NCBI GenBank assembly: GCA_964520295.1
Contig: CAZFMQ010000001.1
Location: 7,048 to 71,047, forward strand
Source: an uncultured Candidatus Saccharibacteria bacterium
GTDB lineage: Bacteria; Patescibacteriota; Minisyncoccia; Phycocordibacterales; EsbW-18
Direction: 5' to 3'
DNA: 64,000 nucleotides
Part shown: positions 1-44,922 of the stretch, one piece after another
How positions within the stretch are numbered: the stretch's first letter is position 1
Layout of the letters: each line of letters begins with the position of its first letter
Position numbers and translations under genes: made by a program
Notes under the pieces: model-generated
Seen by the model: only the letters and a program-made list of their open reading frames with translations
The model's database searches: none
What the model was told of the DNA's origin: nothing

Positions 1-2760
1 ACAGATACATGGCCTGGATGGACATTGTGGCAAGGAGATAATCAGTCAGCAGTAAGTTATGCGGTTGCCGAGCGCACGTATACACAAGCATCAGAAGAGC
101 AGTGGATATTCCGCCCTATGTCTACCGGTGCTGTAAGCGCTACCAACGAAGGACGATCAGCACTCTGTTATCGCAACAGCGGAGACAGCAACGAAAACGT
201 ATGTGTGGGGCTTCATACCGCTGGTGCTAGCGAACGCATTGAGATGTATTGTACAAATAACGGAAGCTTAAGTGTCGTAGGTTCTATTTCTTCAGCGGCA
301 CTTTCAGATAGTATAGTGCTCGGCATCCAGAAGAATGGTGATGTGTATTCGGGGTACGTCTATCCTTCAGATGGTGGTTTCAGCCATCCAACAAATGCAA
401 TGGCTTTTGGTTCATGTACGAAAACAGGTAACACCACATTTGACACCATTCAGTATCAGGTATCAACAGCAAACGAAACCCCATCACCAGTTACCGGTGT
501 TGATTTCATCCGTTACTACGCATCACGCACCTTTGCACTCCTCAACCCTGCACCGGCAAATGCAGGAGCGGGCATCATCAGCGCGGGCTTGCAAGGACAA
601 GTTGCCTACTACGCCGATTCTGGCACAACCACACTTTCGGGTTCATCAAATCTCGTTATTGATACATCGGGCAACGTTGGTGTGGGCACTTCAACGCCAT
701 CAGAAAAATTGCACGTAGAGGGTAATGCCATTATCACGGGCACAACAACAGCATCATGTTTCTCAACAGATGGCATCAATTGTTTGGCAGACAGCGGTGA
801 GTTCGCAACCACTACAGCTGACTTCTGGCTCAGCACAAAGTCCTTGCAAGACCTCGGCGATGTCGCAACAATGACCGCAACAACCGGTGATCTCTTGTAC
901 TGGAACGGAAGCGAGTGGGCAAACATTGCCACCTCATCACTCGGTCTTGGCGGTGGGGGAGGAGGCGGCGGTTCCGGTACGGTCAATACCGCAACAACAG
1001 GACAATTTGCATACTACGCATCAGACGGCACGGCGGTATCGGGTCAGTCAGTGCTCACGACTGACGGCACTAACATCGGCATTGGCACGACGACACCAGG
1101 CGAGAAGCTAGATGTCTGGGGCAACTTCCGTGTCGGTGTAAGCGAAACCCCACTTATATTTGCAAACACGGGAACGGGCATGCTCGGCATCGGCACCGCA
1201 TCACCAAGTGCGAAATTGCACGTGGTCGGCTCGACGCGATTTGAAGGTGGCAACTTCTCGGTTGGTGGCGGTGGTATTTTCCACAACACACTGACGAACA
1301 TGACGTCCATTGAGTCACTCAACCTCGGCAACATGAGCTTTGACACAGATGCCGGCATGGTCTCATGGATAAACTTGCCGATTTCAACGTCGCCCGCCGC
1401 GGGTGTCGTGCAGAGCTACAGCGCGCAGATTGACGATAATCCATTGCTCACGCTGTACGGTGAGTCAGACGGCAGTGGCGGAGCACGCAATATGCGCGTA
1501 GGTATTGGCACGACCACACCGAACGCACTGCTGACACTGCAAGGTTCTGCCGCCACCTCATCAACGCTGCTCTTCAATGTTGCCTCAAGTTCTGGTGCAA
1601 GTATCTTCTCTATCTGGAGCAATGCAACGGCGTCCACAACTGCGGGCGGACGTGTGGGAGTCGGCATGGCTTCCAGTGATGCACCACTCACTACGCTTGA
1701 AGTACGCGGTTTCAACGAAGCACCAACAACCGGCTCAAGCACCAACGGTATTCTTGGTTTGTATGCGGAAGGCATCACACCAGAACTCTCCATGGGCGTT
1801 ACGACAGTTGGTGGAGTATACACGTGGATACAGGGCAAGCATCGCACGGATCCAAATACCTACTATCCTGTCGTTATCAATCCAAATGGCGGCAATGTCG
1901 GCATTGGTACGACCACTGAAGCAAGTGCGTCAAGTACGCTGACCGTTGCCGGCGGCGTCTCACTGCTTGATTTGCCGACAGTGTCGTCGTTCCCACAAGA
2001 CGTACTGTGTATCACCACGGAAGGTGTGGTGCAGAGAAACCTTGGTGCAGGAACCTGTACGACATCATCCATTCGCTTTAAGCATGGTGATAAGAATTTG
2101 GAAATTGGTTTGACCCAGCTCGTTCAGTTGCGCCCCGTGTCATTCGTCTACAATGGCACGGAAGAAGAGCGTGTGGGATTCATTGCCGAGGACGTAGACA
2201 AGATTGAAGGTCTTGACCCATTTGTGTTCCGCGAAGAAGATGGCACACCGCGCGGTGTGCGCTACGAGGATATGGTCGCACTCGCCGTCAAAGCCATTCA
2301 AGAGCTGAATGCAAAGGTGGAGACACTGCTGACGGCGATGGCAGAAGGCGTGGTGGAGTTTGCAAAAATTATTGCCGACAATGTGACGACACGTGAACTG
2401 TGTCTTGATGATGTGTGCATCACGAAGTACGAATTGCAACAATTACTTGATAGTGCCGATGTACAGAGCGCGCCACAGCAACCAGAAGAGCCGGTGCTAC
2501 CCGAAGAGCCACCAGTTACACCGCCAACAGAACCTGTTGATCCCGACGAGCCAATTGAACCGGAGCTTGTCCCGATGCAAGAGGGAGTCCCGACAGAGCC
2601 TGTGCCACCTGAACCGGAAGACCCTGTAGATCCCGACGAGCCAACTGATCCCGATCCAGAGGTTCCGACAGAGCCCGAAGAACCTGGACCAATAGAGCCT
2701 GTTGATCCCGAGTCGGAGGTCCCGACACAGCCCGTGGAGGGAGAACCGGTAACACCGTAG
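1..2760 (+). CDS. Tail-fibre-like repeat protein with C-terminal peptidase-S74 intramolecular-chaperone domain and Pro/Glu-rich tail. It is 5'-truncated: the frame is open from position 1 and the first listed start (25) is TTG.
   Basis: Repeated motifs of the form GIGTTTP..KL.V.G (for example NVGVGTSTPSEKLHVEG, NIGIGTTTPGEKLDVWG, MLGIGTASPSAKLHVVG). The segment SSIRFKHGDKNLEIGL…VSFVYNGTEEERVGFIAEDV…RGVRYEDMVALAVKAIQEL matches the S74 tail-spike/endosialidase chaperone signature (S-x-R-x-K…N). The C-terminal ~100 aa are PEEP/PVDP low-complexity. A poly-Gly linker GGGGGGGGSG is present. Confidence 0.6.
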   Translation, partial: TDTWPGWTLWQGDNQSAVSYAVAERTYTQASEEQWIFRPMSTGAVSATNEGRSALCYRNSGDSNENVCVGLHTAGASERIEMYCTNNGSLSVVGSISSAALSDSIVLGIQKNGDVYSGYVYPSDGGFSHPTNAMAFGSCTKTGNTTFDTIQYQVSTANETPSPVTGVDFIRYYASRTFALLNPAPANAGAGIISAGLQGQVAYYADSGTTTLSGSSNLVIDTSGNVGVGTSTPSEKLHVEGNAIITGTTTASCFSTDGINCLADSGEFATTTADFWLSTKSLQDLGDVATMTATTGDLLYWNGSEWANIATSSLGLGGGGGGGGSGTVNTATTGQFAYYASDGTAVSGQSVLTTDGTNIGIGTTTPGEKLDVWGNFRVGVSETPLIFANTGTGMLGIGTASPSAKLHVVGSTRFEGGNFSVGGGGIFHNTLTNMTSIESLNLGNMSFDTDAGMVSWINLPISTSPAAGVVQSYSAQIDDNPLLTLYGESDGSGGARNMRVGIGTTTPNALLTLQGSAATSSTLLFNVASSSGASIFSIWSNATASTTAGGRVGVGMASSDAPLTTLEVRGFNEAPTTGSSTNGILGLYAEGITPELSMGVTTVGGVYTWIQGKHRTDPNTYYPVVINPNGGNVGIGTTTEASASSTLTVAGGVSLLDLPTVSSFPQDVLCITTEGVVQRNLGAGTCTTSSIRFKHGDKNLEIGLTQLVQLRPVSFVYNGTEEERVGFIAEDVDKIEGLDPFVFREEDGTPRGVRYEDMVALAVKAIQELNAKVETLLTAMAEGVVEFAKIIADNVTTRELCLDDVCITKYELQQLLDSADVQSAPQQPEEPVLPEEPPVTPPTEPVDPDEPIEPELVPMQEGVPTEPVPPEPEDPVDPDEPTDPDPEVPTEPEEPGPIEPVDPESEVPTQPVEGEPVTP

Positions 2761-2761
2761 T

Positions 2762-5656
2762 ATGCGTTTCATCACACCAACGAAAACACGCATAGCACTG
2801 GCAGTTGCAGGCATTGCGTGCATCATTTTGATTGTCGCTGTTGCATCAGGTAATTCATTCTTCGGCATATCCATGCGCAACGATACACTTGCCGACGGTC
2901 TCATCGGACATTGGACCTTTGACGGCAAGTACATGACACCAGGTGTGCAGGATGCTAGTGGCAATGAGTTACACGGTACGCTCTCTGGATTTAGTGCGAC
3001 GACCACTGTCATCGGCAAAATCGGCCAGGCATTGGATTTTGATGGTGTGAATGATTACGTCAATATCGGCGACATTGATCTCACAACCGCCATGAGTGCT
3101 TCTGCATGGTTTTATGTAGATAGCTTTAGTACTGGTGGCTTACTCAATAAAGGCATCGTGTCTCGCCATATTGGTGACGCAGGCAGTAATCGTTCGTGGT
3201 CGTTGTATGTTGATTTACAAACGAGTGGTTCCAACCCACGCCTCGGTGCCGCGCTTTCAAGTAATGGTACAAACCAAGCTTCCAATAATCTTGTTGGTAC
3301 CACCATGCTACAAGAAGGCAGGTGGTATCATGCGGTGCTCACATACGATGCAAATGACAAAACCATTATCTATATAGATGGTGCACAAGAAGCAACAGAT
3401 GCTACACCGCCTGCATCACTCCATTTGAATGATATTCCTGCAAAAATCGGTACACAATATACTGCAACGGATAACCGCTTCTTTTTAGATGGAAAAATAG
3501 ACGACGTGCGTATCTACAACCGCGCGCTCACACCCGAAGAGGTGCAGCGCCTCTATTCTCTCGGTGAAGGTGTCAAAATTGATGCATCACGCGCAACGGG
3601 TGGACTCGGCAACGGCGCGGATTCGGGTCTTGTTGGCCACTGGACCTTTGACGGCAAGTACATGAACCCGAATCCACAAGATTCAAGTGGGTTGGGGAAA
3701 CATGGTGTGCTTACAAACTTCGCTGCCAACCCGGGCATCATTGGCCCTATTGGCCAGGCGCTCGCATTTGATAGCGCCACCGATTACGTACAGATAGATA
3801 ACCCCGATATGCCCACAGGTGATTTCACCATATCGGCGTGGGTGCGCATGACGTCATTTGCGGGTTCACCGACCATTGTGATGATAGGCAACGGATCCAA
3901 TGGTGTGGCAGGTAACGAAATATGGTGGGGGTTTGATACAAGTGGTCGCCTCGGTCACAATTTTGATGGTACAAGTGGTGCAGAGAGTAATACGTTGTTG
4001 TCTCTGAACACATGGGCGCACGCCGTATTACGACGTTCAGGAAGTGCAGTGGAAATGTTTTTGGACGGCATGCTCGTCAGCACATTCACGCGTGCGCAGA
4101 CGCTAAACTTTTCAACGTGCCCGCTTTTTTTAGGGACGGATGCAGACAGTGGTTGTTCGGGCAATTTGGGTAACTATTTCCATGGCCAGATGGACGATGT
4201 GCGTGTGTACGATCGCGCACTTTCCAACGAAGAGGTGATAGTGCTGTACAACATGCGCGGGGGCACCAAAATAGCAACAACACCGCAGGGCGGTGATCTC
4301 TCCAATACAGTTGGTGCTGATCCATATGGCCACTGGACGTTTGATCTCGCGGATTTGGTTTCGGGTGTGCAAGATGTCAGTGGCAATGGACACCACGGTC
4401 AATTGATACTCGGCTCAAATGGCAACACGGCAACGACGACGGCTACAGGTGTGAGAGGGGAGGCGCTAGTGTTTGATGGTAATGATGACCGTGTGCAAAT
4501 TGATTCGCCGAATTTGCCGACGGGTGATTTCACTATATCATTCTGGGCAAAAGCAGATTCATACAGTGGAGGTCCAGCGTTACTCATGATAGGAAACGGT
4601 GCTAATGGTACGGGGGGTAATGAAATATATATTGCATTTCATACAACAGGACAGTTACGGTACCTTGTGGATGGCGGAGATACATTTGAGAGTGCTAAGG
4701 CACTACCTGTCGGCACATGGGGACATATTCTACTACGTCGCACAGGAAGCACTGTTGATTTGCTTCTTGATGGGGTGAAAATACTAACTAGCACGAGCGC
4801 TGGAACGTATAATTATGGGTCATGTCCTCTGCATTTGGGCGTTGATCCGGATTCAGGTTGCTCGGGTTCTTTGACGCAATTCTTGAATGGTCAGCTCGAT
4901 GATTTTCGTGTGTATGACTATGCACTTTCAGATGGTGAAGTGCAGGCGCTGTATCTCGGCGATTCAGGTAATGCTTCTTCAGATTTGATCGCACACTGGA
5001 CATTTGATGGCAAATACATGACCCCGGGCGTGCAGGATGCAAGTGGCAATAATTTGCACGGAACACTTTCAGGATTTTCTGCTACCACTACCGTGATTGG
5101 TCGCATCGGCCAAGCACTTGATTTTGATGGTACGAATAATTATGTATCAGTTCCCGATACTACTGCCCTGGATTTTGGTACAGGGAACATAACCATGAGC
5201 GCGTGGTTTAAGGCACCAAATGAGAATCAGTACAGAACAATAGTTGTGAAGCGAAATCCTTCCTCTCCATTTACCCAAGCTGGTTTGTTCATCTGTACTA
5301 TCAATAGTGGTGGCACCTGTTCTGCAAGTAAAAAACTAACGGGTATTTTTTACGGAGGATCATTAGGTAGCGCTTTGTTCGTGCACACCACAAATGATGT
5401 TGTTGATGGAGAGTGGCACTTAGCGACAGTAGTCCGAACGGGGGCAGCGTCTGCAAAAATATATATTGATGGTGTTGAGGTGGCAACGACAGTGCAACTT
5501 GCGGCAGGTACTCCGAATGTTAATAACAACAACCCACTCATGATAGGGAACGATGGGAGCAGTCACTTTTTCTCAGGTGCAATTGACGATGTGCGCATTT
5601 ACGGGCGTGCACTCACCGCCATCGAAATAGAACGCCTCTACAATATGGGGAGATAA
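2762..5656 (+). CDS. Membrane-anchored protein with four tandem LamG-like (concanavalin-A-like lectin, Laminin_G_3) domains
   Basis: N-terminal TM helix IALAVAGIACIILIVAVA. Four repeats share the pattern HWTFDG…GVQD.SGN..HG.L…IG.IGQAL.FDG.NDYV…DDVR(I/V)Y.RAL…E(V/I)..LY. The gene starts 2 nt after the upstream stop. Confidence 0.65.
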   Translation: MRFITPTKTRIALAVAGIACIILIVAVASGNSFFGISMRNDTLADGLIGHWTFDGKYMTPGVQDASGNELHGTLSGFSATTTVIGKIGQALDFDGVNDYVNIGDIDLTTAMSASAWFYVDSFSTGGLLNKGIVSRHIGDAGSNRSWSLYVDLQTSGSNPRLGAALSSNGTNQASNNLVGTTMLQEGRWYHAVLTYDANDKTIIYIDGAQEATDATPPASLHLNDIPAKIGTQYTATDNRFFLDGKIDDVRIYNRALTPEEVQRLYSLGEGVKIDASRATGGLGNGADSGLVGHWTFDGKYMNPNPQDSSGLGKHGVLTNFAANPGIIGPIGQALAFDSATDYVQIDNPDMPTGDFTISAWVRMTSFAGSPTIVMIGNGSNGVAGNEIWWGFDTSGRLGHNFDGTSGAESNTLLSLNTWAHAVLRRSGSAVEMFLDGMLVSTFTRAQTLNFSTCPLFLGTDADSGCSGNLGNYFHGQMDDVRVYDRALSNEEVIVLYNMRGGTKIATTPQGGDLSNTVGADPYGHWTFDLADLVSGVQDVSGNGHHGQLILGSNGNTATTTATGVRGEALVFDGNDDRVQIDSPNLPTGDFTISFWAKADSYSGGPALLMIGNGANGTGGNEIYIAFHTTGQLRYLVDGGDTFESAKALPVGTWGHILLRRTGSTVDLLLDGVKILTSTSAGTYNYGSCPLHLGVDPDSGCSGSLTQFLNGQLDDFRVYDYALSDGEVQALYLGDSGNASSDLIAHWTFDGKYMTPGVQDASGNNLHGTLSGFSATTTVIGRIGQALDFDGTNNYVSVPDTTALDFGTGNITMSAWFKAPNENQYRTIVVKRNPSSPFTQAGLFICTINSGGTCSASKKLTGIFYGGSLGSALFVHTTNDVVDGEWHLATVVRTGAASAKIYIDGVEVATTVQLAAGTPNVNNNNPLMIGNDGSSHFFSGAIDDVRIYGRALTAIEIERLYNMGR

Positions 5657-5659
5657 TAA

Positions 5660-5880
5660 GTAGGGCACAGGGAACAGTTAACAGCCCCGATACATCGGGG
5701 CAGGGGAACAGGAAGAAAAAAGACGATAGATAACAGAGGACAAGGGCTGACTGAGCAACCGAACCTCTCAGTTTAAGAGAAAAGCAACCCTCCCCCTAAT
5801 TCGCGCGAATTAGGGGGAGGGTTTTCTTTCTGACTTTTTCTTCCCCCGTTCCCTGTTAACTGTTCCCTAGTCCCTACGTT
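5660..5880. repeat. MITE-like structured intergenic element with ~25-bp terminal inverted repeats
   Basis: Left end is GTAGGGCACAGGGAACAGTTAACAG. The reverse complement of the right end is GTAGGGACTAGGGAACAGTTAACAG (2 mismatches). The interior holds two perfect hairpins, CCCCGATACATCGGGG and CCCTCCCCCTAATTCGCGCGAATTAGGGGGAGGG. Confidence 0.4.
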
Positions 5881-5947
5881 TCTTGCATCACTGGGTACAC
5901 TATGGTATCTTTTCTCCACCCACACAGCGGGGTTTTTCTTTGGAAAT

Positions 5948-6364
5948 ATGGCAACAATCAATCAACTAACACGACGCAATCGCAAAAAAGTGGGACGTAA
6001 AGCCAAGACCACTGGTCTTCGTCGTGGTTTCAATACGATTACGAACCGCCCAACCCGCTACATTTCTCCTTTTAAGCGTGGCGTGTGCACACAGGTAAAG
6101 ACCACAACACCAAAGAAGCCAAACTCAGCTATCCGTAAAATCGCACGTGTACGTTTGACGAACGGTCACGAAATTACCGCATACATTCCTGGTATGGGAC
6201 ACAAATTGCAAGAGCACTCTGTGGTATTGGTGCGTGGTGGTCGTGTAAAGGACATCGGTGTTCGCTACACTATCGTACGTGGCACATTGGACGCAGAGGG
6301 CGTAGAGAAGCGCATGAAAGGTCGTTCACACTACGGTGCTAAGAAACCAAAAGCAGCTAAATAA
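5948..6364 (+). CDS. rpsL: 30S ribosomal protein S12
   Basis: [10 protein letters not shown]…VRLTNG…[21 protein letters not shown]; full-length match to S12. Confidence 0.95.
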
Positions 6365-6375
6365 TATATTCAATC

Positions 6376-6873
6376 ATGCGACGCCGACTCAAAGCACGTG
6401 AAAAACACCCTGTTCAACCAGACCGTACGTACAATTCTGTAACGGTTTCTAAACTCATTTCATACGTTACGAAAAGCGGTAAGAAAAACACCGCACAGCG
6501 TCTTGTGTACGGTGCACTAACACGTTTGCAGACAGAACACGATGTACAAGAGCCCGCAGCACTTTTGGAGCAGGCAATTCAGAATGTGGCACCTACAATG
6601 GAAGTACGCTCACGCCGTGTCGGTGGTGCAAACTATCAGGTGCCATTTCCTGTACGCCCAGAGCGACAGCTCGCACTCGCACTCCGATGGATTTTGGAAG
6701 GTGCACGTAGCAAAAAAGGAAGCGATTTTTCAAAGCGACTTGCCGATGAACTCTTTGCCGCAAGCAAGGGTGAAGGTGGTGCAATGACGAAGCGTGAGAA
6801 CGTACACCGCATGGCAGAAGCCAACAAGGCATTTGCACACTTCGCACTCTCACGTTCAAAGACGAAAAAATAG
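6376..6873 (+). CDS. rpsG: 30S ribosomal protein S7
   Basis: Position after rpsL; S7-like sequence throughout (KSGKKNTAQRLVYGAL…MEVRSRRVGGANYQVP). Confidence 0.95.
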   Translation: MRRRLKAREKHPVQPDRTYNSVTVSKLISYVTKSGKKNTAQRLVYGALTRLQTEHDVQEPAALLEQAIQNVAPTMEVRSRRVGGANYQVPFPVRPERQLALALRWILEGARSKKGSDFSKRLADELFAASKGEGGAMTKRENVHRMAEANKAFAHFALSRSKTKK

Positions 6874-7040
6874 GGAACAGGGACTAGTTCACATGCCCGC
6901 CCGTACCGACTGGTACAGTCGGGCGAGGAACAGAAGAACCAAAATCTCAAGGCATCGCCTTGAGATTTTGGTTCTTGAGACACATTTTCTTTATTTTTCC
7001 TGTTCCCCGGTAACTGTGCCCCGTTCCTTAGGTATCCATT
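6870..7040. repeat. Second structured intergenic element related to the 5660-5880 element
   Basis: Starts TAGGGAACAGGGACTAG right at the rpsG stop. Contains hairpins CCGACTGGTACAGTCGG and a 16-bp-stem hairpin GAACCAAAATCTCAAGG…CCTTGAGATTTTGGTTC. Ends with CCTGTTCCCCGGTAACTGTGCCCCGTTCC, whose reverse complement contains GGGCACAG and GGGAACAG. Confidence 0.35.
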
Positions 7041-7145
7041 TGCTAGATAGGCGATCAGTGGTATAGTACCTGTGCCCGTGGGGGCTTGTTTTTATATCAC
7101 ATACGCACCACACACAGTACGTAACAGTAAAATACATAATTATAT

Positions 7146-9296
7146 ATGAATAGAGAGTATCCATTAGAGAAAGTACGCAACTTCGGAATTATTGCACACA
7201 TTGACGCCGGCAAAACGACGACATCAGAGCGCGTTCTTTTCTATACCGGTTTGTCACACAAGATTGGTGAAGTGCACGAAGGTGAAGCAACCATGGACTG
7301 GATGGATCAAGAGCGCGAGCGTGGTATCACCATCACTGCTGCTGCGACAACTTGTTTTTGGACTCCTACAGGTGAAAAAGATAACCCAGATCGTAAACAC
7401 CAATTCAACCTCATTGACACGCCAGGACACATTGACTTCACCATTGAAGTAAAGCGCTCACTGCGCGTATTGGACGGTGCTGTTGTCGTCTTTGACGGTG
7501 TATCGGGTGTGGAGCCACAATCAGAGACAAACTGGCGCTATGCCGACGAAGGTAAAGTGCCTCGTTTGTGTTTCATCAATAAATTGGACCGCACCGGTGC
7601 ATCATTTGAACGTTCATTTGCATCCATTCTTGATCGATTGACGACAAAAGCGGTACGCATGCAGATTCCTATCGGCGAAGAAGATAAGCACCTCGGTGTA
7701 GTGGATTTGCTTACCATGAAAGCAGTGTACTTTGAAGGCAACATGGGTAGCACGCTTCGCTATGATGAGATTCCAGCAGAGTTGCAAGCGGATGCAGAGA
7801 AATACCGCCACGAACTCATTGAGCGCATTGTGGAGCAGGACGAGCAGGCAATGAACGACTATCTGGAAGGGAAGGAGCCATCATTGGAGGACTGCAAAAA
7901 GATTTTACGCCGCGCCGTTATTGCAAACGAAATTGTGCCGGTGTTTACAGGCTCATCGTTGAAGAACAAAGGTGTACAGCTCGTGCTGGATGCCGTTGTA
8001 GAGTACTTGCCATCACCATTGGATATTCCTCCTGCGCACGGTATTGATCCACGAACCGGAGACACCATTGAACGAGAAACATCAGACAGCGCACCATTCG
8101 CCGCACTCGCGTTTAAAGTGCAGACCGACCCATTCGTTGGTCAGCTCACGTTCTTCCGCGTGTACTCAGGAACCGTTGAGGCGGGCTCATACATTTACAA
8201 CAGCCAAACAGAAACCAAAGAGCGTTTGGGACGTATTGTGCGCTTGCACGCAAATGACCGCGAAGAAGTGAAGAAAGTGTACGCAGGAGAAATTGCTGCG
8301 GCGGTAGGTTTGAAAGATGCAAAAACATCACACACACTCTGTGATGAAAACAATCCAATTATTCTGGACCCAATCAAGGTGCCTGAACCAGTGATCTCAT
8401 TGCGTATTGAACCAAAGACAAAGGCAGACCAAGAAAAACTCGGTCTCGCGCTCAAGCGTCTTGCCGATGAAGACCCAACATTCCGCGTTTCTACTGATCC
8501 AGAAACACTTGAAACGATTATTGCCGGCATGGGTGAATTGCACCTTGAGGTGCTCGTCGAGCGCATGCGTCGCGAGTTTTCAGTGGATGCAAACGTTGGT
8601 AAGCCACAGGTGGCATATCGCGAAACTATTTTGGGCGAAGCAGACGTGGAGCACAAATACATCAAGCAAACAGGTGGTCGCGGTCAGTACGGTCATGTGA
8701 AAATCCGCGTCAAGCCGATGGATGTTACCATCGCAGAAGAAGATTTGCCGAAGAACACAAAGCGCGACGATGGATTGGAGTTCATCAACTCTATCAAGGG
8801 AGGTGTCATTCCACAGGAGTACATCCCAGCAGTACAGAAGGGTTTGAAAGAGGCGATGGATCGCGGTGTGCTTGCGGGCTTCAAGTTGGTAAACATTTCA
8901 GTGGATTTGTACGATGGTTCGTACCACGAAGTGGACTCATCTGAAATTGCGTTCAAGATTGCAGCGTCACAAGCATTGCAAGAAGCAGTGCAGAAAGCAC
9001 GTCCGGTGATGCTTGAACCAGTGATGAATGTGGAAGTAGTAGTGCCCGAGCAGTTCATGGGTGACATTACCGGTAACCTTTCATCAAAGCGTGGTCAGAT
9101 TCAGGGTATGGAGGACCGCGGTGCGCTCAAAGCAATTAAAGCATTTGTACCATTGTCAGAAATGTTCGGTTACACGACACAGTTGCGCTCAATGACGGAG
9201 GGTCGTGGTAACTCAACAATGGAATTTGATCACTACGAAGTGGTGCCAGATAACGTGGCAAAGACGGTGATTGAGGCGAGAGGAGCAGGGAAGTAA
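7146..9296 (+). CDS. fusA: Elongation factor G
   Basis: [22 protein letters not shown]…[12 protein letters not shown]; EF-G domains II-V present; 716 aa. Confidence 0.95.
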
Positions 9297-19649: not shown

Positions 19650-22262
19650 ATGAAATCAATAGAAGGAGCTCCAGTACCAACAGGGCCAGAGGTACCAGCG
19701 GAGCGAGTTACCAAAAAACCGCGCGCATCTAGAAAAAAACAAGCAGAGCCCAAAGCCCCCACGGTTGAGGAGGTGTTTACACCAGAGCAACGAGAAGCGG
19801 GTATACAAGCGGCAAAAGAAGCACAAACGCCGCGCGTCACAAAGAAATTTATTGAAGATAGGCGTATCAAACTTGAAGAAGATACGTGGCTTACAAAACA
19901 AAAGAAAAAGGAGATTGAAGATTTGATTGATGAGTTAGAAGAAATTCACATCGGACTCAAAGAAAAAAAGTATTCTGTTAAAGAGATAGGAGAGAGACGG
20001 GATCGACAGGCGCATCTAGTACGGCAATTACGCGTTGGATCTGAAATGGGTATTACAGAAGATGAGATAGAAGAGGTGCGCGCCATTGGTATGCGTGATG
20101 CAGAAGTGCGCCGTGCAAAAGCTGCAAAAGCAAAAAAGCGAAACGCAAAACCAAAACGAGAAAAAACTGCAAAGGAGCGTGTTACAAAAGGCGAAGTAGC
20201 GGCAGCCTACGCAAAAATACAAGAAGCGCAGGATGCAAAAAAAGAAATACCAACTGCATACGAGGCGGCTCTGAAACGATTGGCAGAAGTAGATGTGCAA
20301 GAATCATTGGCATCGGTCGCTGTTGCGGAAGGTATTGCACTAGATGAAAACCACGATGGTTTGACGGAGAAGCTATCCACTGAAGAGGGGGTATTTTCTG
20401 AATCAGATGTGTTTGAAAAAATGACCGACGAAGAGCAGGTGGAGGCAGCCCTTGAAACTGTGCCCGCAAAAGAACGACCAACATGGTTGCGCAAACTTGC
20501 AGGTGCAGGATTTGCTTTGCAAGAAGCAAAAAATGCATTTGGAGAAAAGGCATTCGGATTTGCCTATGAGAAGTTTTTTAAAAAAACACTACAGGATAAA
20601 GCAGAGGGGGAAGATGTTGGTGATACGCGTTTCAATTCAGCATTGTTGATGCGCTCGTTGGCCAATCACTATGCAAGCGCAAAAGAGCAATCACGCCAAA
20701 ATCGAGAAGATTTCTACGCGGGCAAAAGCAAAAAGAGTGCCTGGGCACAACTTGCAGGGGAAGGTATTCGTGCAACGCGTGCAGTGTTTGCGCCGTTCAA
20801 TATGCTCCGCTCCCCAGTGTGGGCATTGATGGCAATGGGTCGCATATCAGAAACCGCATCGGATGTACGTCTTGAAAAGAAAAAATGGGGTACCACGGAG
20901 GATGAGGCAGCGGAGGAGGCGTGGTACTTGTACCAACGGGCAGAAAAGAGTGCACGAGAACAGAATCGTGCAATGCCGACTGCCGATGATATTCGACGTG
21001 AATATGTGACGAGGGTTGCCGAGGGCACGTTCGAAGCATATGAGGGCACCATTGCCACCTCAAGTGCTGGTATGGCTATCAAAAAGTTGATTGAACCGAT
21101 GTATGTACAATTGCAAGAGATACAAGCCAATACCACGTTGACTTCAGAAGAAAGGGAGACGCAATTGAATGCGTTGGCACAGAAACATGAAAAAATGATG
21201 CATGAAATCGACGCGCTTGTTGATCAAACGGGAAAAGTAGATGCAGTTGCATACTACTTGAAACGCTCGGGTGTATGGACAAAGCGTGTTGCAACCGTAC
21301 TTGCGATTGAAACACTTGCTGAAGCGGGGTGGCGCATTGCTCAATTGGACACTGCATTTCACATAAGCCCAGATACGCTGGCAGAGGCGCACGAGTACGG
21401 AGCGGCGGTGAATCATGCACCAGAGTATGCACCGGATGTTGCGGGAGCATTATCGGCTGAAGAGGCACAAAAGATAGTGACATCGGTGGAAGGGGTATCA
21501 GAAGCACCGGAGGTACCCGCATCTGTGGAGGTAGAAAAAGCAGCACCAGTTATCATTGAGAAAGGAGGTAATATTTGGAGTGCGGCAAAAGAAGTATTTG
21601 GGGACACGGGGTTGCCCAAAGAACAGTTTGCTGAAGCATGGAGTAACTCAACGGTAGCACTTGCTGATGGTCGTGAGATTCCGCTTGCCGAACTCCATTT
21701 GGTACATGAGGGCGATACTCTTTCATATGTGGCAGGGGAGAATGGTGCCGTGGGACATTTTGAATTCAATAATGAATCACACATTGCGTATGGTGATGCA
21801 CTCAATTTACCGGGGGCACATGAAGCCACACCGACATTTGACGAAACAGTTGATGTGGAACCGCGAGCAGTCGGCGTGCCTGAAGAGGCGCTTGAAACAA
21901 TAGACACACCTCGTGAGGTGCGAGTCGAGATGAGTGATATGTATGATGCGGCATCGGAAGCATCAACAGAGTCATATACTGAACCGCTCGCACGTGAAAT
22001 GCACGAAAAATTGCAAAACTTTTTTGGGGACTATACCAATGAGCGTGCGTCATCGTGGCATCAATGGAAGGATATGGGTGCGCGTAAGTTTATGCGCCTT
22101 GCACTCGGAGATGATACGCTCGATGCATCGTTTCAAAAACATCTTGAATACTTGCAAGAACAAACAGGATCACGCCCACGTGGTGGTTTTTGGCAAAAAA
22201 ACGAGACTGTGGAAGCATACCTAGAGCGTGCCACTGCCGAACTACTCAAACGCAAAGAATAA
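19650..22262 (+). CDS. Large (870 aa) highly charged K/E/A-rich, predicted coiled-coil protein of unknown function
   Basis: Low-complexity KKQAEPK…, AKAAKAKKRNAKPKREKTAKER. Possible LysM-like bit HLVHEGDTLSYVAG near the C-terminus. No TM helix. Occupies the position normally held by infA-rpmJ-rpsM-rpsK-rpsD-rpoA-rplQ. Confidence 0.5.
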   Translation: MKSIEGAPVPTGPEVPAERVTKKPRASRKKQAEPKAPTVEEVFTPEQREAGIQAAKEAQTPRVTKKFIEDRRIKLEEDTWLTKQKKKEIEDLIDELEEIHIGLKEKKYSVKEIGERRDRQAHLVRQLRVGSEMGITEDEIEEVRAIGMRDAEVRRAKAAKAKKRNAKPKREKTAKERVTKGEVAAAYAKIQEAQDAKKEIPTAYEAALKRLAEVDVQESLASVAVAEGIALDENHDGLTEKLSTEEGVFSESDVFEKMTDEEQVEAALETVPAKERPTWLRKLAGAGFALQEAKNAFGEKAFGFAYEKFFKKTLQDKAEGEDVGDTRFNSALLMRSLANHYASAKEQSRQNREDFYAGKSKKSAWAQLAGEGIRATRAVFAPFNMLRSPVWALMAMGRISETASDVRLEKKKWGTTEDEAAEEAWYLYQRAEKSAREQNRAMPTADDIRREYVTRVAEGTFEAYEGTIATSSAGMAIKKLIEPMYVQLQEIQANTTLTSEERETQLNALAQKHEKMMHEIDALVDQTGKVDAVAYYLKRSGVWTKRVATVLAIETLAEAGWRIAQLDTAFHISPDTLAEAHEYGAAVNHAPEYAPDVAGALSAEEAQKIVTSVEGVSEAPEVPASVEVEKAAPVIIEKGGNIWSAAKEVFGDTGLPKEQFAEAWSNSTVALADGREIPLAELHLVHEGDTLSYVAGENGAVGHFEFNNESHIAYGDALNLPGAHEATPTFDETVDVEPRAVGVPEEALETIDTPREVRVEMSDMYDAASEASTESYTEPLAREMHEKLQNFFGDYTNERASSWHQWKDMGARKFMRLALGDDTLDASFQKHLEYLQEQTGSRPRGGFWQKNETVEAYLERATAELLKRKE

Positions 22263-22284
22263 CAGATGCGCTATACTGTAGAGT

Positions 22285-25044
22285 ATGGAACGATTTTCAG
22301 TGACAGCGGAGACACAATTTTCTTCTGCTGAACAAGAAGCAGCGTTTTTGCGTGAGCGCCTCAAGCGCTTGGAAGAGGGTATTGATAGTGGCGCAGACAC
22401 ATTACGCCACGAGCGCCCCGAAGAACAGTTGACGCGTGCATACGCTTCTGTACAACCAGAGAAGGTACTGGCGAAAGGGCATCAGATGTTGAAGCCAGAA
22501 ATTGATGCCGTCGTGCTTGATTTGGCTCCCGAAGAGCACGATACCGTTATGAGTGAATTACTTACGCTTGTGCGTGAAAAGGGTATTCGCAATGCACTGT
22601 CAGTTGTTGAAAAATTACACGATGCGCATATAGAAGACGATTTTCATCGGTTTTTAGCAGAATATCTCAAGACGGGATACCCCGTTTCTGGTATCAAGGA
22701 GGGGGATGTGCTCTGGAAGGCATTGCATATGACACTATTGGAGGTAACGTTGCCGTTTTCCGCACAGGAAGCACGCGAGCACCAGCGCCCACTGAAAGAA
22801 TTGCTCTCATCTATGGAGCAATTTTATGCAGGCGCACTGTCTACAACAGCAGAAAAAAATGCAAAGAAAAATTATTTCACGATTGAGTTAGCAGTAGAAT
22901 CACATCAAGAGCACATCGCACTCTTTCTCTCGGTGCCAGTTGAGAAGGTGCCACTCTTTGAGCGTCAGTTACTTTCTATTTTCCCGCAGGCACGTATTGA
23001 GGTTGCAAAAAATGATTACAACGTCTTTGTGCCCGAAGGGCAGGTGGCGGGTTCTACGGTGTCGTACAGTCGTCCATCCGCGTATTCGCTTAAAACACAC
23101 GAATCCTTTGACTACGACCCGCTCAATATCTTGCTCTCGTCATTTGCAAAGTTGCTCAAAACAGGGGAGGGAGCAGCATTTCAAGTACTGATTCGCCCTG
23201 CGCAAACCGATTACACAGGACGATTTAGAAAGTCGTTGGAAAAACTATCAAAGGGTATTTCAGTGAAAGAGGCGTTTGCGCAAGAATCACTCATGTCTTC
23301 TATTGGTAAGGAGCTCAACGGGTTGTTCTTCTCATCGGGGAAAAAAGAGGACACAGAAAAAGAAAAGGAGCGCGTGATAGATGATATCGCCATAGAGCAA
23401 GTTAAGCAGAAGGTGGCGCATCCAATTGTGGAGACAAACATACGTCTCGTGGCATCAGCAACCACTATGACACGGGCCGAAGCAATACTTTCAGACATGG
23501 AAGCGAGCCTCAATCAGTTTGAAGACCCGCGCGGGAATGCACTGGTGTGCACGCGCATCAAAAAGAATGCATTCAAAGTATTCATTAAAAACTTCTCTTT
23601 CCGTCTTTTTTCTGAGAGCAATGTGTTGCCGATGAATTTGCGCGAAGTTGCATCAATCATTCACCTGCCGACCGCAGGAAGCGATGGCTCGCGAGAATTG
23701 AAACGTTCAAAGTCAGGCGGCGCACCAGCGCCTATGGATTTGCCAACAGAAGGAATCCTTCTCGGTCATAACACATACGGCAATAAGCGCACACCAATAC
23801 ACATGGCAGATGTTGATCGTGTGCGCCACCTGTACGTCATTGGTCAGACTGGTACAGGTAAAACAACCATTTTGAAAAATATGATTGTACAAGATATCAA
23901 AAATGGGGAAGGGGTTTGTATGATTGATCCGCACGGCACTGACATTCAAGACATTCTTGCGCAGATTCCGAAAGAACGTTGGGATGATGTTATTTACTTT
24001 GATCCTGCACACACAGAGCGTCCGATGGGGTTGAATATGTTGGAGTACGATACGCGATACCCCGAGCAAAAGACATTTGTGGTCAACGAGCTCTTTTCTA
24101 TTTTCCAAAAATTATATGAGGCAGATACCATGGGGCCAATGTTTGAGCAGTACTTCCGTAACGCCACGCTCTTGGTTATTGAAGATCCCAACAGTGGTAA
24201 TACACTCGCAGATGTGTCGCGTGTCTTAAGTGATCCTGCATTTCGTGAATTGAAGCTTGCGCGCTGTAAAAACCCTATTGTGGTGCAGTTTTGGCGCGAT
24301 GTTGCCGAAAAAGCAGGTGGCGAATCATCGTTGGTCAACATGGTGCCGTACATCACCAGCAAGTTTGACGTCTTTTTGGCGAATGATTTTATGCGTCCGA
24401 TTATTACTCAGCGCACATCGGCGTTTAATTTCCGCCAGATTATGGATGAGCGCAAAATCTTACTCGTCAATCTCTCCAAGGGGCGTTTGGGTGATATCAA
24501 TGCCAACCTCATCGGCCTTATTATTGTCGGCAAGATTCTCATGGCGGCACTGTCACGCGTGGACGTACTTGGGCGTGGGGAAGTACATCCGTTCTATCTC
24601 TACATTGATGAGTTCCAAAACGTAACGACTGATTCTATCTCAACCATTCTTTCAGAGGCGCGTAAGTACAAACTAGGATTGATTGTGGCGCATCAGTTTA
24701 TTAAGCAATTACCAGATAAAATTCGTGATGCGATATTCGGTAACGTCGGTTCTTTGTGTGCGTTCCGTGTTGGTTCTGAGGACGCAGAGTTTTTGGAAAA
24801 ACAATTCACACCTGTATTTTCAGCAACTGATTTGATGAACATAGATAACTTCAATGCAGTTATTAAAATGCTAGCGAATAATAAGCCCGTGCGTCCGTTC
24901 AACTTGCAAATTGAAAAACCAGCAGAAGGCAACATTGATGTAACCGACCGCCTCAAAGAACTTTCCTATGTTCGGTATGGTCGCCCACGCGCTGAAATTG
25001 AGGCGCAGGTAAGTACAACCCATACGGGTTTTGGCAATTCTTGA
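22285..25044 (+). CDS. FtsK/HerA-superfamily P-loop ATPase with a TraG/TraD/VirD4-type C-terminal domain (type IV coupling-protein-like). It has no N-terminal TM anchor.
   Basis: Walker A HLYVIGQTGTGKTT; Walker B FYLYIDEFQN; KLGLIVAHQF…GNVGSLCAFRVGSEDAEFL matches the TraG-D_C pattern. The N-terminal ~480 aa are unique. Confidence 0.6.
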   Translation: MERFSVTAETQFSSAEQEAAFLRERLKRLEEGIDSGADTLRHERPEEQLTRAYASVQPEKVLAKGHQMLKPEIDAVVLDLAPEEHDTVMSELLTLVREKGIRNALSVVEKLHDAHIEDDFHRFLAEYLKTGYPVSGIKEGDVLWKALHMTLLEVTLPFSAQEAREHQRPLKELLSSMEQFYAGALSTTAEKNAKKNYFTIELAVESHQEHIALFLSVPVEKVPLFERQLLSIFPQARIEVAKNDYNVFVPEGQVAGSTVSYSRPSAYSLKTHESFDYDPLNILLSSFAKLLKTGEGAAFQVLIRPAQTDYTGRFRKSLEKLSKGISVKEAFAQESLMSSIGKELNGLFFSSGKKEDTEKEKERVIDDIAIEQVKQKVAHPIVETNIRLVASATTMTRAEAILSDMEASLNQFEDPRGNALVCTRIKKNAFKVFIKNFSFRLFSESNVLPMNLREVASIIHLPTAGSDGSRELKRSKSGGAPAPMDLPTEGILLGHNTYGNKRTPIHMADVDRVRHLYVIGQTGTGKTTILKNMIVQDIKNGEGVCMIDPHGTDIQDILAQIPKERWDDVIYFDPAHTERPMGLNMLEYDTRYPEQKTFVVNELFSIFQKLYEADTMGPMFEQYFRNATLLVIEDPNSGNTLADVSRVLSDPAFRELKLARCKNPIVVQFWRDVAEKAGGESSLVNMVPYITSKFDVFLANDFMRPIITQRTSAFNFRQIMDERKILLVNLSKGRLGDINANLIGLIIVGKILMAALSRVDVLGRGEVHPFYLYIDEFQNVTTDSISTILSEARKYKLGLIVAHQFIKQLPDKIRDAIFGNVGSLCAFRVGSEDAEFLEKQFTPVFSATDLMNIDNFNAVIKMLANNKPVRPFNLQIEKPAEGNIDVTDRLKELSYVRYGRPRAEIEAQVSTTHTGFGNS

Positions 25045-37891: not shown

Positions 37892-38311
37892 ATGGCAAAA
37901 AAAGTTCTAAAAACCCTCAAATTGCAGATCCCCGGTGGTGCGGCAACTCCTGCGCCTCCATTGGGTGCAACGCTTGGTCAAGCGGGTGTTAACATTGGTG
38001 ATTTCGTTAATAAATTCAACACCGCCACTGCAGAGATGCGTGGAGAAACAGTGTCGGTATTGCTCACTGTATTTGAAGATCGAAGCTACGACTTCGTACT
38101 CAAAAGCCCACCAGCAACATCACTCTTGCTCAAAGCAGCAGGTATTCAGAAAGGTTCTGGCAATCCGCTCAAGATTGTGGGCAAGGTAACCAAAGCGCAA
38201 GTAAAAGAAATTGCAGAGCGCAAGTTGGTAGACCTCAACGCACACGATGTTGATGCCGCAATGAAAATCATTGAAGGTTCAGCTCGTAGTATGGGGATTG
38301 AAGTGCGTTAA
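37892..38311 (+). CDS. rplK: 50S ribosomal protein L11 (no rplA/rplJ/rplL follow)
   Basis: [26 protein letters not shown]…. Confidence 0.9.
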
Positions 38312-38480: not shown

Positions 38481-38513
38481 GGTGAAATAAATTTCTAATC
38501 TGGAATTAAAAAA

Positions 38514-38556
38514 CACCCCCGCCATTCCGAAACTTCGGAATGGCGGGGGTGTTTGT
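38514..38556 (+). terminator. Rho-independent terminator
   Basis: CACCCCCGCCATTCCGAAACTTCGGAATGGCGGGGGTGTTTGTT. Confidence 0.5.
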
Positions 38557-38603
38557 TATGTGCTAGTGTAGCGCCAGATTATAACCCGACGAAAGGAGAC
38601 ACA

Positions 38604-40536: not shown

Positions 40537-40546
40537 GAACCCCTCC

Positions 40547-44916: not shown

Positions 44917-44922
44917 TACGAT

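What the first reader, a model, noticed from the sequence alone, without database searches (positions are those of the whole stretch)
1..5656. Tail-fibre-like protein with an S74 intramolecular-chaperone domain coupled to a membrane-anchored 4xLamG lectin protein, with no phage context
The first ORF has collagen/tail-fibre-type xIGIGTTxPxxKLxVxG repeats, then a recognisable peptidase-S74 chaperone domain (SSIRFKHGDKN…). This is a module normally found on phage tail spikes and fibres. The second ORF starts 2 nt later and has a signal-anchor plus four concanavalin-A-like (LamG) domains of the HWTFDG…DDVRIY.RAL type.

Nothing else nearby is phage-like; the rpsL operon follows. In a presumed episymbiotic CPR cell, a phage-derived receptor-binding fibre paired with a lectin is a plausible host-attachment apparatus.
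Basis: partly seen in the sequence, partly recalled or inferred. Interest (0 to 1): 0.6.

Follow-up and report, generated by a model that had tools for sequence, protein, structure and literature searches.

The report
Phage-like surface fibre plus lectin operon
A tiny symbiotic (CPR) bacterium carries, among ordinary housekeeping genes, a two-gene operon for a very long phage-tail-fibre-like surface filament and a four-domain sugar-binding protein. It is probably a cell-attachment device like the prey-recognition fibres of the predator Bdellovibrio, but its function has not been tested.

Summary
ORF1 (nt 1-2760, open at the left edge) has six fibre-loop motifs, a Cys-bracketed tip and a real Peptidase_S74 domain with an invariant Ser689/Lys694. 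ORF2 (2762-5656) has an N-terminal signal sequence and four Laminin_G_3 domains.

There is no phage context. A Campbellbacteria genome (EF-G 88% identical) has the same fibre, LamG, rpsL-rpsG-fusA order, with RNase H, MscL, ComEC, ParB and M50 protease upstream. Other relatives sit among housekeeping genes.

The closest characterised relatives are the Bdellovibrio MAT (mosaic adhesive trimer) S74 fibres, which match by sequence (E = 5e-15). The MAT paper's table of examples from other organisms lists no CPR bacterium.

The fibre-then-LamG order recurs. LamG is the next gene in 7 of 38 related loci, against 2 of 180 genes at other positions. It is not universal: other secreted proteins take that place elsewhere.

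Compared with the phage relatives fetched, these cellular proteins are much longer. Most have a Cys hairpin and an acidic disordered tail after S74, and their full-length relatives have signal peptides.

Verdict: a new variant of a known kind. Host attachment is plausible but inferred.

The parts
1..2760 (+). ORF1: C-terminal 919 aa of a giant secreted fibre protein. It is cut off at its N-terminus by the window edge; the orthologue in L001 is 2276 aa with a signal peptide.
   Evidence: Open frame from nt 1. 43% identity over 700 aa to L001 7319-14149. The L001 N-terminus has a signal peptide.
1..600 (+). Orphan all-beta segment of ORF1 (aa 1-200). It is absent from the L001 orthologue and may be a swapped-in module.
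   Evidence: No homologue at E<=1e-3. No local BLAST or LamG-HMM hit. AF2 single-sequence model has pLDDT 40 and is all beta.
679..1947 (+). Fibre shaft with six G[VI]G-T-x-x-P-x-x-K-L-x-V capping-loop motifs (nt 679-717, 1078-1116, 1186-1224, 1501-1539, 1657-1704, 1900-1947) and a Gly run (943-978).
   Evidence: Motif positions. phmmer to Bdellovibrio Bd2133 8OND E = 7e-9; profile E = 4.7e-15.
1318..1482 (+). Conserved roughly 55-aa module (LNLGNMSFDTDAGMVSW...SYSAQIDDN...YGESDGSGG). It occurs at varying positions in many related fibres.
   Evidence: BLAST against homologues shows the module at different places in different proteins.
2005..2064 (+). Cys-bracketed distal tip (LC-x16-C-TT) that would end the mature fibre after cleavage.
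   Evidence: Both Cys residues are invariant in A2. The motif is present in 137 of the 149 best cluster representatives.
2065..2331 (+). Peptidase_S74 intramolecular chaperone domain. Catalytic Ser689 (nt 2065-2067) and Lys694; predicted cleavage between Thr688 and Ser689.
   Evidence: Pfam. Invariant S and K. PDB profile hits. AF2 pLDDT 87-92 for aa ~700-770. Foldseek top hit is the MyRF ICA domain.
2395..2448 (+). Post-S74 Cys hairpin motif ELCLDDVCITKYELQQLL ('ctail'). It is absent from all 18 phage relatives fetched.
   Evidence: Motif in 22 of 120 homologues and 84 of 149 representatives. None in 18 viral loci. Modelled as a beta-hairpin plus helix, block-mean pLDDT 49-74.
2470..2757 (+). 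Pro/Glu-rich, acidic, low-complexity C-terminal tail.
   Evidence: 33 P and 22 E in the last 100 residues. Equivalent T/E/P/S/D-rich tails, median 86 aa, occur in relatives.
2762..5656 (+). ORF2: secreted (or signal-anchored) protein of four Laminin_G_3 domains. Approximate domain limits: nt 2894-3556, 3623-4252, 4316-4966, 5006-5653.
   Evidence: Pfam E = 1.1e-108, four stretches. 37% identity to the L001 partner. PDB 4QVS LamG E = 1.8e-12. Motif positions.
2762..2845 (+). ORF2 signal sequence: MRFITPTKTR, an 18-residue hydrophobic core, then A-V-A|S.
   Evidence: Kyte-Doolittle maximum 2.88 at aa 11. Similar AxA-ended N-termini occur in all LamG partners.
5786..5823 (+). 17-bp perfect hairpin followed by a T-run. 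It is a likely terminator that closes the two-gene operon before rpsL.
   Evidence: Terminator-like scan.
5948..9296 (+). rpsL, rpsG and fusA. These are flanking housekeeping genes and share synteny with L001.
   Evidence: ORF list. EF-G 88% identical to L001. Same gene order in L001.

Best explanation
This is a chromosomal two-gene operon of a Campbellbacteria-like CPR bacterium that builds a cell-surface adhesion device.

**ORF1** is a very long, Sec-exported fibre of the same kind as phage tail fibres and Bdellovibrio MAT fibres.
- Three chains are brought into register by the C-terminal S74 chaperone domain and zip up into a beta-helical shaft.
- The chaperone then cuts itself off at Ser689. 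This releases a fragment of about 231 aa (S74 domain, Cys hairpin and acidic tail) and exposes a small disulfide-bracketed tip.

**ORF2** is translated from the same message. It is a secreted array of four LamG lectin domains that supplies, or adds to, carbohydrate-binding specificity.

**Function.** Together they most likely mediate recognition of and attachment to another cell, the host of the episymbiont.

**Shown here:** domain identities, conserved catalytic residues, operon structure, conserved synteny, cellular context, recurrence of the pairing, and fast divergence.

**Inferred:** trimerisation, autocleavage, surface display, and the ligand and biological role.
For: - **S74 domain.** Pfam hit. 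Ser689 and Lys694 are invariant in 18 sequences. The profile matches solved S74 proteins at 1e-18 to 3e-10. This part of the AF2 model is confident.
- **Fibre shaft.** It is homologous to the Bdellovibrio MAT fibres Bd2133 and Bd3182. Those fibres were shown experimentally to be surface-displayed adhesins that self-cleave through S74 (PMC10769870).
- **Export.** The orthologue and other full-length relatives start with signal peptides.
- **Operon.** There is a 1-nt gap between the ORFs and a hairpin terminator after ORF2.
- **Synteny.** The pair is syntenic in L001, with cellular genes upstream.
- **Recurrence.** LamG is the next gene at 7 of 38 Cys-loop-tip loci, against 2 of 180 genes at other positions (Fisher p = 8e-5), and at 0 of 33 loci without the Cys loop. 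Six of those seven pairs are separated by 6 nt or less.
- **Divergence.** The fibre is 43% and the LamG protein 37% identical to their orthologues, against 88% for EF-G. That is typical of surface-interaction proteins.
- **Literature.** ConA-like lectins have already been proposed as attachment factors in Patescibacteria (PMC12911398).
Against: - No experiment or expression data bear on function.
- The N-terminus of ORF1 is missing from the window, so its export signal is inferred from relatives.
- The monomer AF2 model of the shaft is poor (mean pLDDT 54.6), so the trimeric beta-helix is inferred from homology only.
- LamG pairing is absent at about 80% of related loci. There the next gene is another secreted protein or an unrelated housekeeping gene.
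- The loci are not phylogenetically independent, and four of the seven positives were picked as top hits to ORF1.
- How the fibre stays attached to the cell is unknown.
- The residue after the catalytic Ser is Ser, not the usual Asp.
Confidence: 0.6

Rival explanations
1. Two-component fibre tip, as in phage S16/T2 gp37-gp38. S74 cleavage exposes a conserved docking surface, and the protein encoded downstream (here the LamG array) binds there as an exchangeable adhesin. ORF2 would then be the real specificity determinant, riding on the fibre.
For: - In S16, cleavage of the intramolecular chaperone exposes the gp38 docking surface, and the gene order is fibre then adhesin (PMC7917993). S16 gp37 matches the ORF1 family profile at 1.5e-15.
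- The pre-cleavage tip is small and conserved (two invariant Cys), not a variable binding domain.
- The next gene is usually a secreted protein of interchangeable family: one to four LamG domains, Gly-rich proteins, or other families.
- LamG is the next gene only at loci with the Cys-loop tip (7 of 38 against 0 of 33, p = 0.013).
Against: - ORF2 has no separate attachment domain. LamG starts about 20 aa after the signal sequence and the protein ends with the last LamG domain.
- There is no homology to gp38.
- Many Cys-loop fibres are followed by non-secreted housekeeping genes.
- No complex modelling was possible with these tools.
Confidence: 0.2
2. ORF2 is the cell-side anchor. A signal-anchored LamG protein would hold the N-terminal or glycosylated part of the fibre on the CPR cell surface. 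That is the role still unassigned for the MAT N-terminal domain in Bdellovibrio.
For: - ORF2 has an 18-residue hydrophobic core that could act as an uncleaved anchor.
- The MAT paper states that the surface element retaining the fibres is unknown.
- The genes are tightly coupled.
Against: - A-V-A|S and equivalent AxA sites in all partners favour cleavage.
- Partner architecture changes greatly between close relatives (four LamG domains, against two LamG domains plus another region). Fibre N-termini are also not conserved. This argues against a fixed anchor-ligand pair.
Confidence: 0.1
3. A general envelope or matrix structure: surface fibrils used for aggregation, biofilm or particle attachment, or as a protective coat, with no specific host recognition.
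For: - The best solved LamG match is an S-layer-domain protein (4QVS).
- The family is very large: 9539 cluster representatives at E<=1e-3. It also occurs in Bacteroidia, Kiritimatiellota, Zixibacteria and an archaeon, not only in symbionts.
- The genes lie next to highly expressed translation operons in several lineages.
Against: - Modular swapping and fast divergence between near relatives fit changing specific ligands better than a generic coat.
- The characterised cellular homologues are prey-recognition adhesins.
Confidence: 0.15
4. A remnant or cargo of a prophage: an ordinary phage receptor-binding module left in the chromosome.
For: - PHROGs tail-fibre families match ORF1 (phrog_9942, 3e-15), and virion and baseplate families match ORF2.
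- Related S74 fibres occur on IMG/VR viral contigs.
Against: - No phage structural, integrase or lysis genes lie in the 58 kb downstream or in the 7 kb upstream of the syntenic orthologue.
- Both ORFs are intact, and the locus is conserved between genomes that have diverged to 88% EF-G identity.
- Full-length relatives carry Sec signal peptides, which virion proteins do not need.
- Viral relatives are shorter, lack the post-S74 extension and have no LamG neighbour.
Confidence: 0.03

Closest known systems
Bdellovibrio bacteriovorus MAT (mosaic adhesive trimer) fibres, S74 subgroup (e.g. Bd3182; also Bd2133). Caulton et al. 2024, PMC10769870.
   Same: - Chromosomal, cellular genes rather than phage genes.
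- Signal peptide, and a long shaft with the same G-x-G-T-x-x-P-x-x-x-L capping-loop motif. Direct sequence match E = 7e-9 (single sequence) and 5e-15 (profile).
- C-terminal S74 domain with an S-x-x-x-x-K motif.
- Mosaic module content.
- The organism lives on other bacteria.
   Different: - The organism is a CPR episymbiont (presumed monoderm), a group not in the MAT paper's list of lineages.
- The N-terminal domain could not be shown to match the conserved ~130-aa MAT domain.
- The catalytic motif is S-S rather than S-D.
- There are about 130 extra residues after S74 (Cys hairpin plus acidic tail).
- A LamG protein is translationally coupled, which is not described for MATs.
Phage S74 tail fibres and spikes (K1F endosialidase 3GW6, T5 pb1 4UW8/8HQZ, GA-1 appendage 3GUD, 8JOV)
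   Same: S74 intramolecular chaperone after a trimeric beta-helix; profile matches at 1.4e-18 to 0.14; PHROGs tail-fibre hits.
   Different: - Not in a phage.
- Full-length relatives carry export signals.
- Much longer: 2276 aa in the orthologue, against 300-1100 aa in most viral loci (up to 2343 aa).
- Has the post-S74 extension, which is absent from the viral loci.
Phage S16/T2 gp37-gp38 long-tail-fibre tip (6F45)
   Same: The fibre has an S^S-type S74 cleavage site and is followed by a separately encoded adhesin gene.
   Different: The downstream protein is a LamG array, not a polyglycine-sandwich gp38. Docking is untested.
MyRF ICA domain (7DC3)
   Same: Same S74/ICA fold. Profile E = 2.9e-10; top Foldseek hit.
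   Different: MyRF is a eukaryotic membrane transcription factor with an unrelated function.
TafC, the LamG-tipped minor subunit of haloarchaeal Tat-fimbriae (NF052521; PMC11821415)
   Same: A LamG domain proposed to act as the adhesive element of a surface filament. NCBIfam E = 3.3e-51.
   Different: The score is 174.6, against a cut-off of 410. Only the LamG part matches. ORF2 has no pilin-like donor-strand domain and no twin-arginine signal.
Concanavalin-A-like lectins of Patescibacteria
   Same: Secreted ConA/LamG proteins have already been speculated to mediate attachment (PMC12911398).
   Different: In the papers searched here they are not linked to an S74 fibre gene.

Membership tests
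Peptidase_S74 / intramolecular chaperone auto-processing domain | Sequence match to PF13884 above the gathering threshold | tested here: met
   24.4 bits against a cut-off of 22, E = 3.6e-5, aa 689-735. The family profile matches solved S74 proteins at 1.4e-18 to 2.9e-10.
Peptidase_S74 / intramolecular chaperone auto-processing domain | Catalytic Ser-Lys dyad in an S-D-x-x-x-K motif | tested here: met
   S689-S-I-R-F-K694. The Ser and Lys are invariant in 18 sequences. Asp is replaced by Ser, as in many relatives (SSARFKH).
Peptidase_S74 / intramolecular chaperone auto-processing domain | Trimerisation-dependent self-cleavage | not testable with these tools
   Needs expression of wild type against S689A, or at least multimer modelling.
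MAT (mosaic adhesive trimer) superfamily | Beta-helical fibre with capping-loop motif, homologous to Bd fibres | tested here: met
   Six motifs. 8OND E = 7e-9. 8OND, 8OML, 8OJN, 8OL4 and 8ON4 matched by the profile.
MAT (mosaic adhesive trimer) superfamily | N-terminal signal peptide | tested here: inconclusive
   The N-terminus lies outside the window. The signal peptide is present in the orthologue L001 and in P0001, P0021 and P0045.
MAT (mosaic adhesive trimer) superfamily | Conserved beta-rich domain of about 130 aa after the signal peptide | not testable with these tools
   No Bd N-domain sequence or structure was available. The first 260 aa of L001 have no match among the CPR relatives.
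MAT (mosaic adhesive trimer) superfamily | Surface display and binding of prey or host epitopes | not testable with these tools
   Experimental.
Laminin_G_3 (ConA-like lectin/glucanase) | PF13385 match | tested here: met
   E = 1.1e-108, 360 bits, four stretches.
TafC family fimbrial protein (NF052521) | Score above the equivalog cut-off and a match to the pilin-like N-domain | tested here: not met
   174.6 bits against a cut-off of 410. The best-scoring stretch covers model positions 149-362, which includes the LamG domain.
Prophage receptor-binding module | Neighbouring phage structural or integration genes | tested here: not met
   Cellular genes surround the orthologous locus and five others. 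The rest of the window is housekeeping.
gp37-gp38 type two-component tip | The downstream adhesin docks on the cleaved fibre tip | not testable with these tools
   Only the gene order and the conserved tip are consistent with it.
Collagen-like fibre | G-X-Y triplet repeats | tested here: not met
   The translation shows none. The only Gly run is GLGGGGGGGGSG.

The most novel reading that the evidence does not exclude
CPR bacteria have taken over the phage long-tail-fibre logic as a modular host-range organelle. In this reading, a Sec-exported fibre matured by S74 has its cleaved, disulfide-bracketed tip capped by an exchangeable secreted adhesin encoded in the next gene. That adhesin may be a LamG array, a Gly-rich protein or another family. 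Swapping this cassette would set which host cells an episymbiont can attach to. The CPR-specific post-S74 Cys hairpin and acidic tail would be an adaptation that lets the chaperone work outside the cell after Sec export.
Probability: 0.15. Interest if true: 0.8.

Novelty: new variant of a known kind. Interest (0 to 1): 0.5.

Why it matters
How CPR/Patescibacteria recognise and hold on to their hosts is largely unknown. In the papers read here, attachment is ascribed to type IV pili, loosely defined 'adhesins' and speculated lectins.

This locus gives a concrete and widespread candidate. The family has 9539 cluster representatives, and many members are giant proteins. It is homologous to the experimentally validated prey-recognition fibres of Bdellovibrio.

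It also gives testable predictions: Ser689-dependent self-cleavage, surface display, glycan binding by the LamG domains, and cassette-like partner genes.

It would extend the MAT concept from predators to episymbionts. It also points to a subfamily-specific C-terminal extension that no current model explains.

The function is not shown, and NCBI already annotates such proteins as 'tail fiber domain-containing' in CPR genomes, so this is a moderate lead rather than a surprise.

Tried and rejected
1. Extending the window upstream through an exact-protein look-up of ORF2: not on record. A syntenic orthologue was used instead.
2. Looking for paralogues of either ORF in the window: none.
3. Identifying ORF1 aa 1-200:
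   - no Pfam hit;
   - no homologue in the 5.8-billion-protein search;
   - no local hit;
   - the single-sequence AF2 model has pLDDT 40, too poor for a fold search, so none was run.
4. AF2 monomer of aa 420-830: only the S74 part is confident. Foldseek hits are weak (best E = 0.019, MyRF ICA) and are used only as consistency evidence.
It succeeded with the narrower alignment A3.
6. The idea that LamG always follows the fibre: rejected. Ten other downstream proteins have no LamG_3 domain. They include a weak Gly_rich_2 match, an amidase, NYN, EF-G and unknowns.
7. TafC membership: rejected on score.
8. Prophage reading: rejected on context.
9. Collagen reading: rejected on sequence.
10. Literature searches linking S74, tail fibre or MAT with Patescibacteria found nothing specific.
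11. DNA repeats within ORF2: the LamG units are only 63-78% identical at DNA level, so there has been no recent duplication or cassette conversion.
Full report
**What is in the sequence.** Frame 1 of the + strand is open from nt 1 to a stop at 2758-2760. ORF1 is therefore the C-terminal 919 aa of a gene that begins outside the window. ORF2 starts at 2762, one base after that stop, and runs to 5656 (964 aa). A 17-bp perfect hairpin with a T-run at 5786-5823 follows. After it come rpsL (5948), rpsG (6376) and fusA (7146). The two ORFs thus look like a separate bicistronic unit.

**Domains of ORF2.**
- Pfam gives Laminin_G_3 at E = 1.1e-108 in four stretches.
- HWTFD start motifs lie at aa 50, 293, 524 and 745. 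DD[VF]R[IV]Y end motifs lie at aa 247, 478, 713 and 942.
- The best solved relative is a LamG module of an S-layer-domain protein, 4QVS, at E = 1.8e-12.
- The N-terminus is MRFITPTKTR, an 18-residue hydrophobic core, then A-V-A|S.
- Every LamG partner in related loci has the same kind of N-terminus ending in an AxA-like site.
- The LamG units are only 63-78% identical at DNA level.

**Domains of ORF1.**
- *S74 domain.* Pfam Peptidase_S74 matches aa 689-735 just above threshold (24.4 against 22 bits). In an 18-sequence alignment, Ser689 and Lys694 (S-S-I-R-F-K) are invariant.
- *Solved relatives.* The profile of that alignment hits solved S74 proteins:
  - tail fibre 8JOV, 1.4e-18;
  - phage S16 gp37 (6F45), 1.5e-15;
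  - MyRF ICA (7DC3), 2.9e-10;
  - T5 pb1 (8HQZ), 7e-4.
- *Structure model.* The AF2 monomer model is confident only over this domain (pLDDT 87-92). Its best Foldseek match is the MyRF ICA domain.
- *Predicted cleavage.* In S16 (S^SDRRIKK; PMC7917993) and Bd3182 (S782; PMC10769870), cleavage is just before the catalytic Ser. By analogy it is predicted here between Thr688 and Ser689, releasing a 231-aa fragment.
- *Shaft motifs.* Upstream lie six G[VI]G-T-x-x-P-x-x-K-L-x-V motifs. They are not collagen-like. They match the beta-helix capping loops of Bdellovibrio fibres: Bd2133 (8OND) at E = 7e-9 with the single sequence and 4.7e-15 with the profile, along with 8OML, 8OJN, 8OL4 and 8ON4.
- *Tip.* Just before the cleavage site is a Cys-bracketed loop (LC-x16-C-TT) whose two Cys are invariant.
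- *Extension after S74.* There is an unusual extension: a Cys hairpin motif (ELCLDDVCITKYELQQLL), then about 96 aa of Pro/Glu-rich tail.
- *Orphan start.* Residues 1-200 have no detectable homologue. They are absent from the orthologue.

**Context, and whether this is phage.**
- *The rest of the window.* The other 58 kb is ordinary CPR chromosome: ribosomal proteins, SecY, Map, NDK, SecDF, ArgRS, ThyA, PilM and a VirD4-like ATPase.
- *Upstream of the window.* The window could not be extended.
- *Syntenic orthologue.* A Candidatus Campbellbacteria MAG (BTUR01000001.1, locus L001) has the same arrangement: a 2276-aa S74 fibre, a 1067-aa LamG protein, then rpsL-rpsG-fusA. Upstream of its fibre gene lie RNase H, MscL, ComEC, a cell-wall hydrolase, ParB, an MBL-fold protein and an M50 protease.
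- *Divergence.* EF-G is 88% identical between the two genomes. The fibre is only 43% and the LamG protein 37% identical, and their module content differs. The surface genes are evolving far faster than the core.
- *Export signals.* The L001 fibre and other full-length relatives begin with signal peptides.
- *Other relatives* also lie among housekeeping genes:
  - L009: pentose-phosphate genes;
  - L010: SecDF;
  - L012: inside the spc ribosomal operon;
  - L020: FolD and EF-G, on a 680-kb contig;
  - L043: GuaA and AlaRS.
- *Viral relatives.* Eighteen relatives on IMG/VR viral contigs are shorter. None has the post-S74 extension or a LamG neighbour.
- *Conclusion.* The prophage reading is rejected.

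**How general the pairing is.**
- *First sample.* Among the closest homologues, a LamG gene follows the fibre gene directly in L001, L006/L007, L009 and L010. It lies two and four genes away in L008. It does not occur in L011 or L012.
- *Wider sample.* A scan of metagenome contigs gave 79 more loci.
- *Method.* I used crude gene calls and a LamG HMM built from the partner proteins.
- *Counts.* LamG is the next gene at 7 of 38 loci whose fibre has the Cys-loop tip. It accounts for 2 of 180 genes at other positions (Fisher p = 8e-5). It follows 0 of 33 fibres without the Cys loop (p = 0.013). Six of those seven pairs are separated by 6 nt or less.
- *Caveats.* The loci are not independent. Four of the seven positives were chosen as top hits to ORF1. 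The HMM is narrow, although Pfam found no LamG_3 in ten other downstream proteins.
- *Other partners.* Elsewhere the next gene is often another signal-peptide protein of a different family: a group sharing a C-terminal domain (L042, L044, L055), Gly-rich proteins (L032, L024), or L012/L036. In other loci it is an unrelated housekeeping gene.
- *Conclusion.* The pairing is a real, recurrent module, but only one of several options.

**Size of the family.** The tip-S74-hairpin region matches 9539 cluster representatives at E<=1e-3 and 638 at E<=1e-10. Of the best 149, 137 have the Cys-loop tip and 84 have the post-S74 hairpin. Their tails have a median length of 86 aa and are rich in T, E, P, S and D. 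Thirty-one are longer than 1500 aa, and the longest is 4986 aa. Named hits are mostly Paceibacterota/Parcubacteria MAGs, annotated by NCBI as 'tail fiber domain-containing protein'.

**Mechanism.**
- *Best-supported reading.* This is a MAT-type surface fibre. It would be exported by Sec, brought into trimeric register by the S74 chaperone and self-cleaved at Ser689. It would be co-expressed with a secreted four-domain LamG lectin, and the two together would mediate attachment to another cell.
- *Shown.* Domain identities, catalytic residues, operon structure, synteny, cellular context, enrichment of the pairing and fast divergence.
- *Inferred.* Trimerisation, cleavage, surface display and the ligand.
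- *How the two proteins cooperate is open.* They may act independently, which is my default. ORF2 may dock on the cleaved tip as gp38 does on S16 gp37. The small conserved tip and the interchangeable secreted partners favour this; the lack of any attachment domain in ORF2 argues against it. Or ORF2 may anchor the fibre to the cell.
- *Unexplained.* The role of the post-S74 hairpin and acidic tail. It is absent from the phage relatives fetched here, and Bd3182 has only about 140 residues after its catalytic Ser.

**Comparison with what is known.**
- *Closest system.* The closest characterised system is the Bdellovibrio MAT superfamily. These are chromosomal fibres homologous to phage tail fibres. 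They are surface-displayed and have S74 or other tips. One member binds prey glycans.
- *Literature gap.* No paper in the library both cites that work and mentions Patescibacteria.
- *Earlier speculation.* ConA-like lectins have been loosely proposed as CPR attachment factors. A LamG domain is the proposed tip adhesin of haloarchaeal Tat-fimbriae (TafC). ORF2 matches that model only through LamG and scores far below its cut-off.
- *Classification.* I class this as a new variant of a known kind: a MAT-like S74 fibre in a CPR bacterium, with a characteristic C-terminal extension and a translationally coupled LamG partner.

**Verdict.** It is wrong on 'collagen', unproven on 'membrane-anchored', and plausible but untested on host attachment. 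Interest is moderate (0.5). This is a concrete, testable candidate for CPR host recognition, but it is homologous to a described system, very common in metagenomes, and has no functional data.

Noticed in passing
window 51084-54545 (+): A 1153-aa class-I aminoacyl-tRNA synthetase (tRNA-synt_1 plus Anticodon_1, IleRS-like) has a complete histidine-phosphatase (His_Phos_1) domain inserted at aa 500-672, inside the catalytic region.
   Followed up: no
window 1-9296; L001; L020 6020-10854; L022 1-3257; L012 7271-15505: S74 fibre genes repeatedly lie beside or inside translation operons. In the window and L001 they are upstream of rpsL-rpsG-fusA. In L020 and L022 they are directly upstream of fusA. 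In L012 the gene sits between rplE and rpsH, inside the spc operon. The reason is unknown.
   Followed up: partly
window 2395-2757 and relatives: After the S74 domain there is an extension: the motif LC-x4-9-C-[IV]-T-x-x-E-L-x-x-L-L, then an acidic disordered tail of about 65-200 aa. It occurs in 84 of the 149 best cluster representatives and in none of 18 viral relatives. No known S74 model explains it.
   Followed up: partly
window 1-600 (+): The first 200 visible residues of ORF1 have no homologue in the 5.8-billion-protein search. They are missing from the orthologue in a genome with 88% identical EF-G. This suggests recent module swapping within the fibre.
   Followed up: yes
P0045 (L012 8001-11453), P0016, P0042, P0080: These relatives carry two S74 catalytic motifs in tandem (SDRRLK, then SSDERLKKNI about 160 aa later), which implies tandem chaperone domains.
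   Followed up: no
window 19650-25044 (+): A VirD4/TraG-like coupling ATPase (22285-25044) is preceded by an 870-aa protein with no Pfam match (19650-22262). It may be part of the type IV secretion-like system reported in CPR.
   Followed up: no
window 43678-48183 (+) and 61834-63156 (+): A 1086-aa DUF7483/DUF7361 protein is preceded by a 412-aa orphan. PilM lies further downstream. These are other possible surface or pilus components.
   Followed up: no
window 38001-42000: This stretch has a higher G+C content (0.53-0.56, against about 0.47 around it). It carries a cytidylyltransferase, a dCMP deaminase and ThyA, the last on the opposite strand.
   Followed up: no
L032 2871-3935; L024 5200-6273; L042, L044, L055: Alternative secreted proteins follow Cys-loop S74 fibres. 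Some are Gly-rich (weak Gly_rich_2 match). Another family shares a C-terminal domain of about 130 aa. Phage S16 gp38 is also a polyglycine-rich adhesin.
   Followed up: partly
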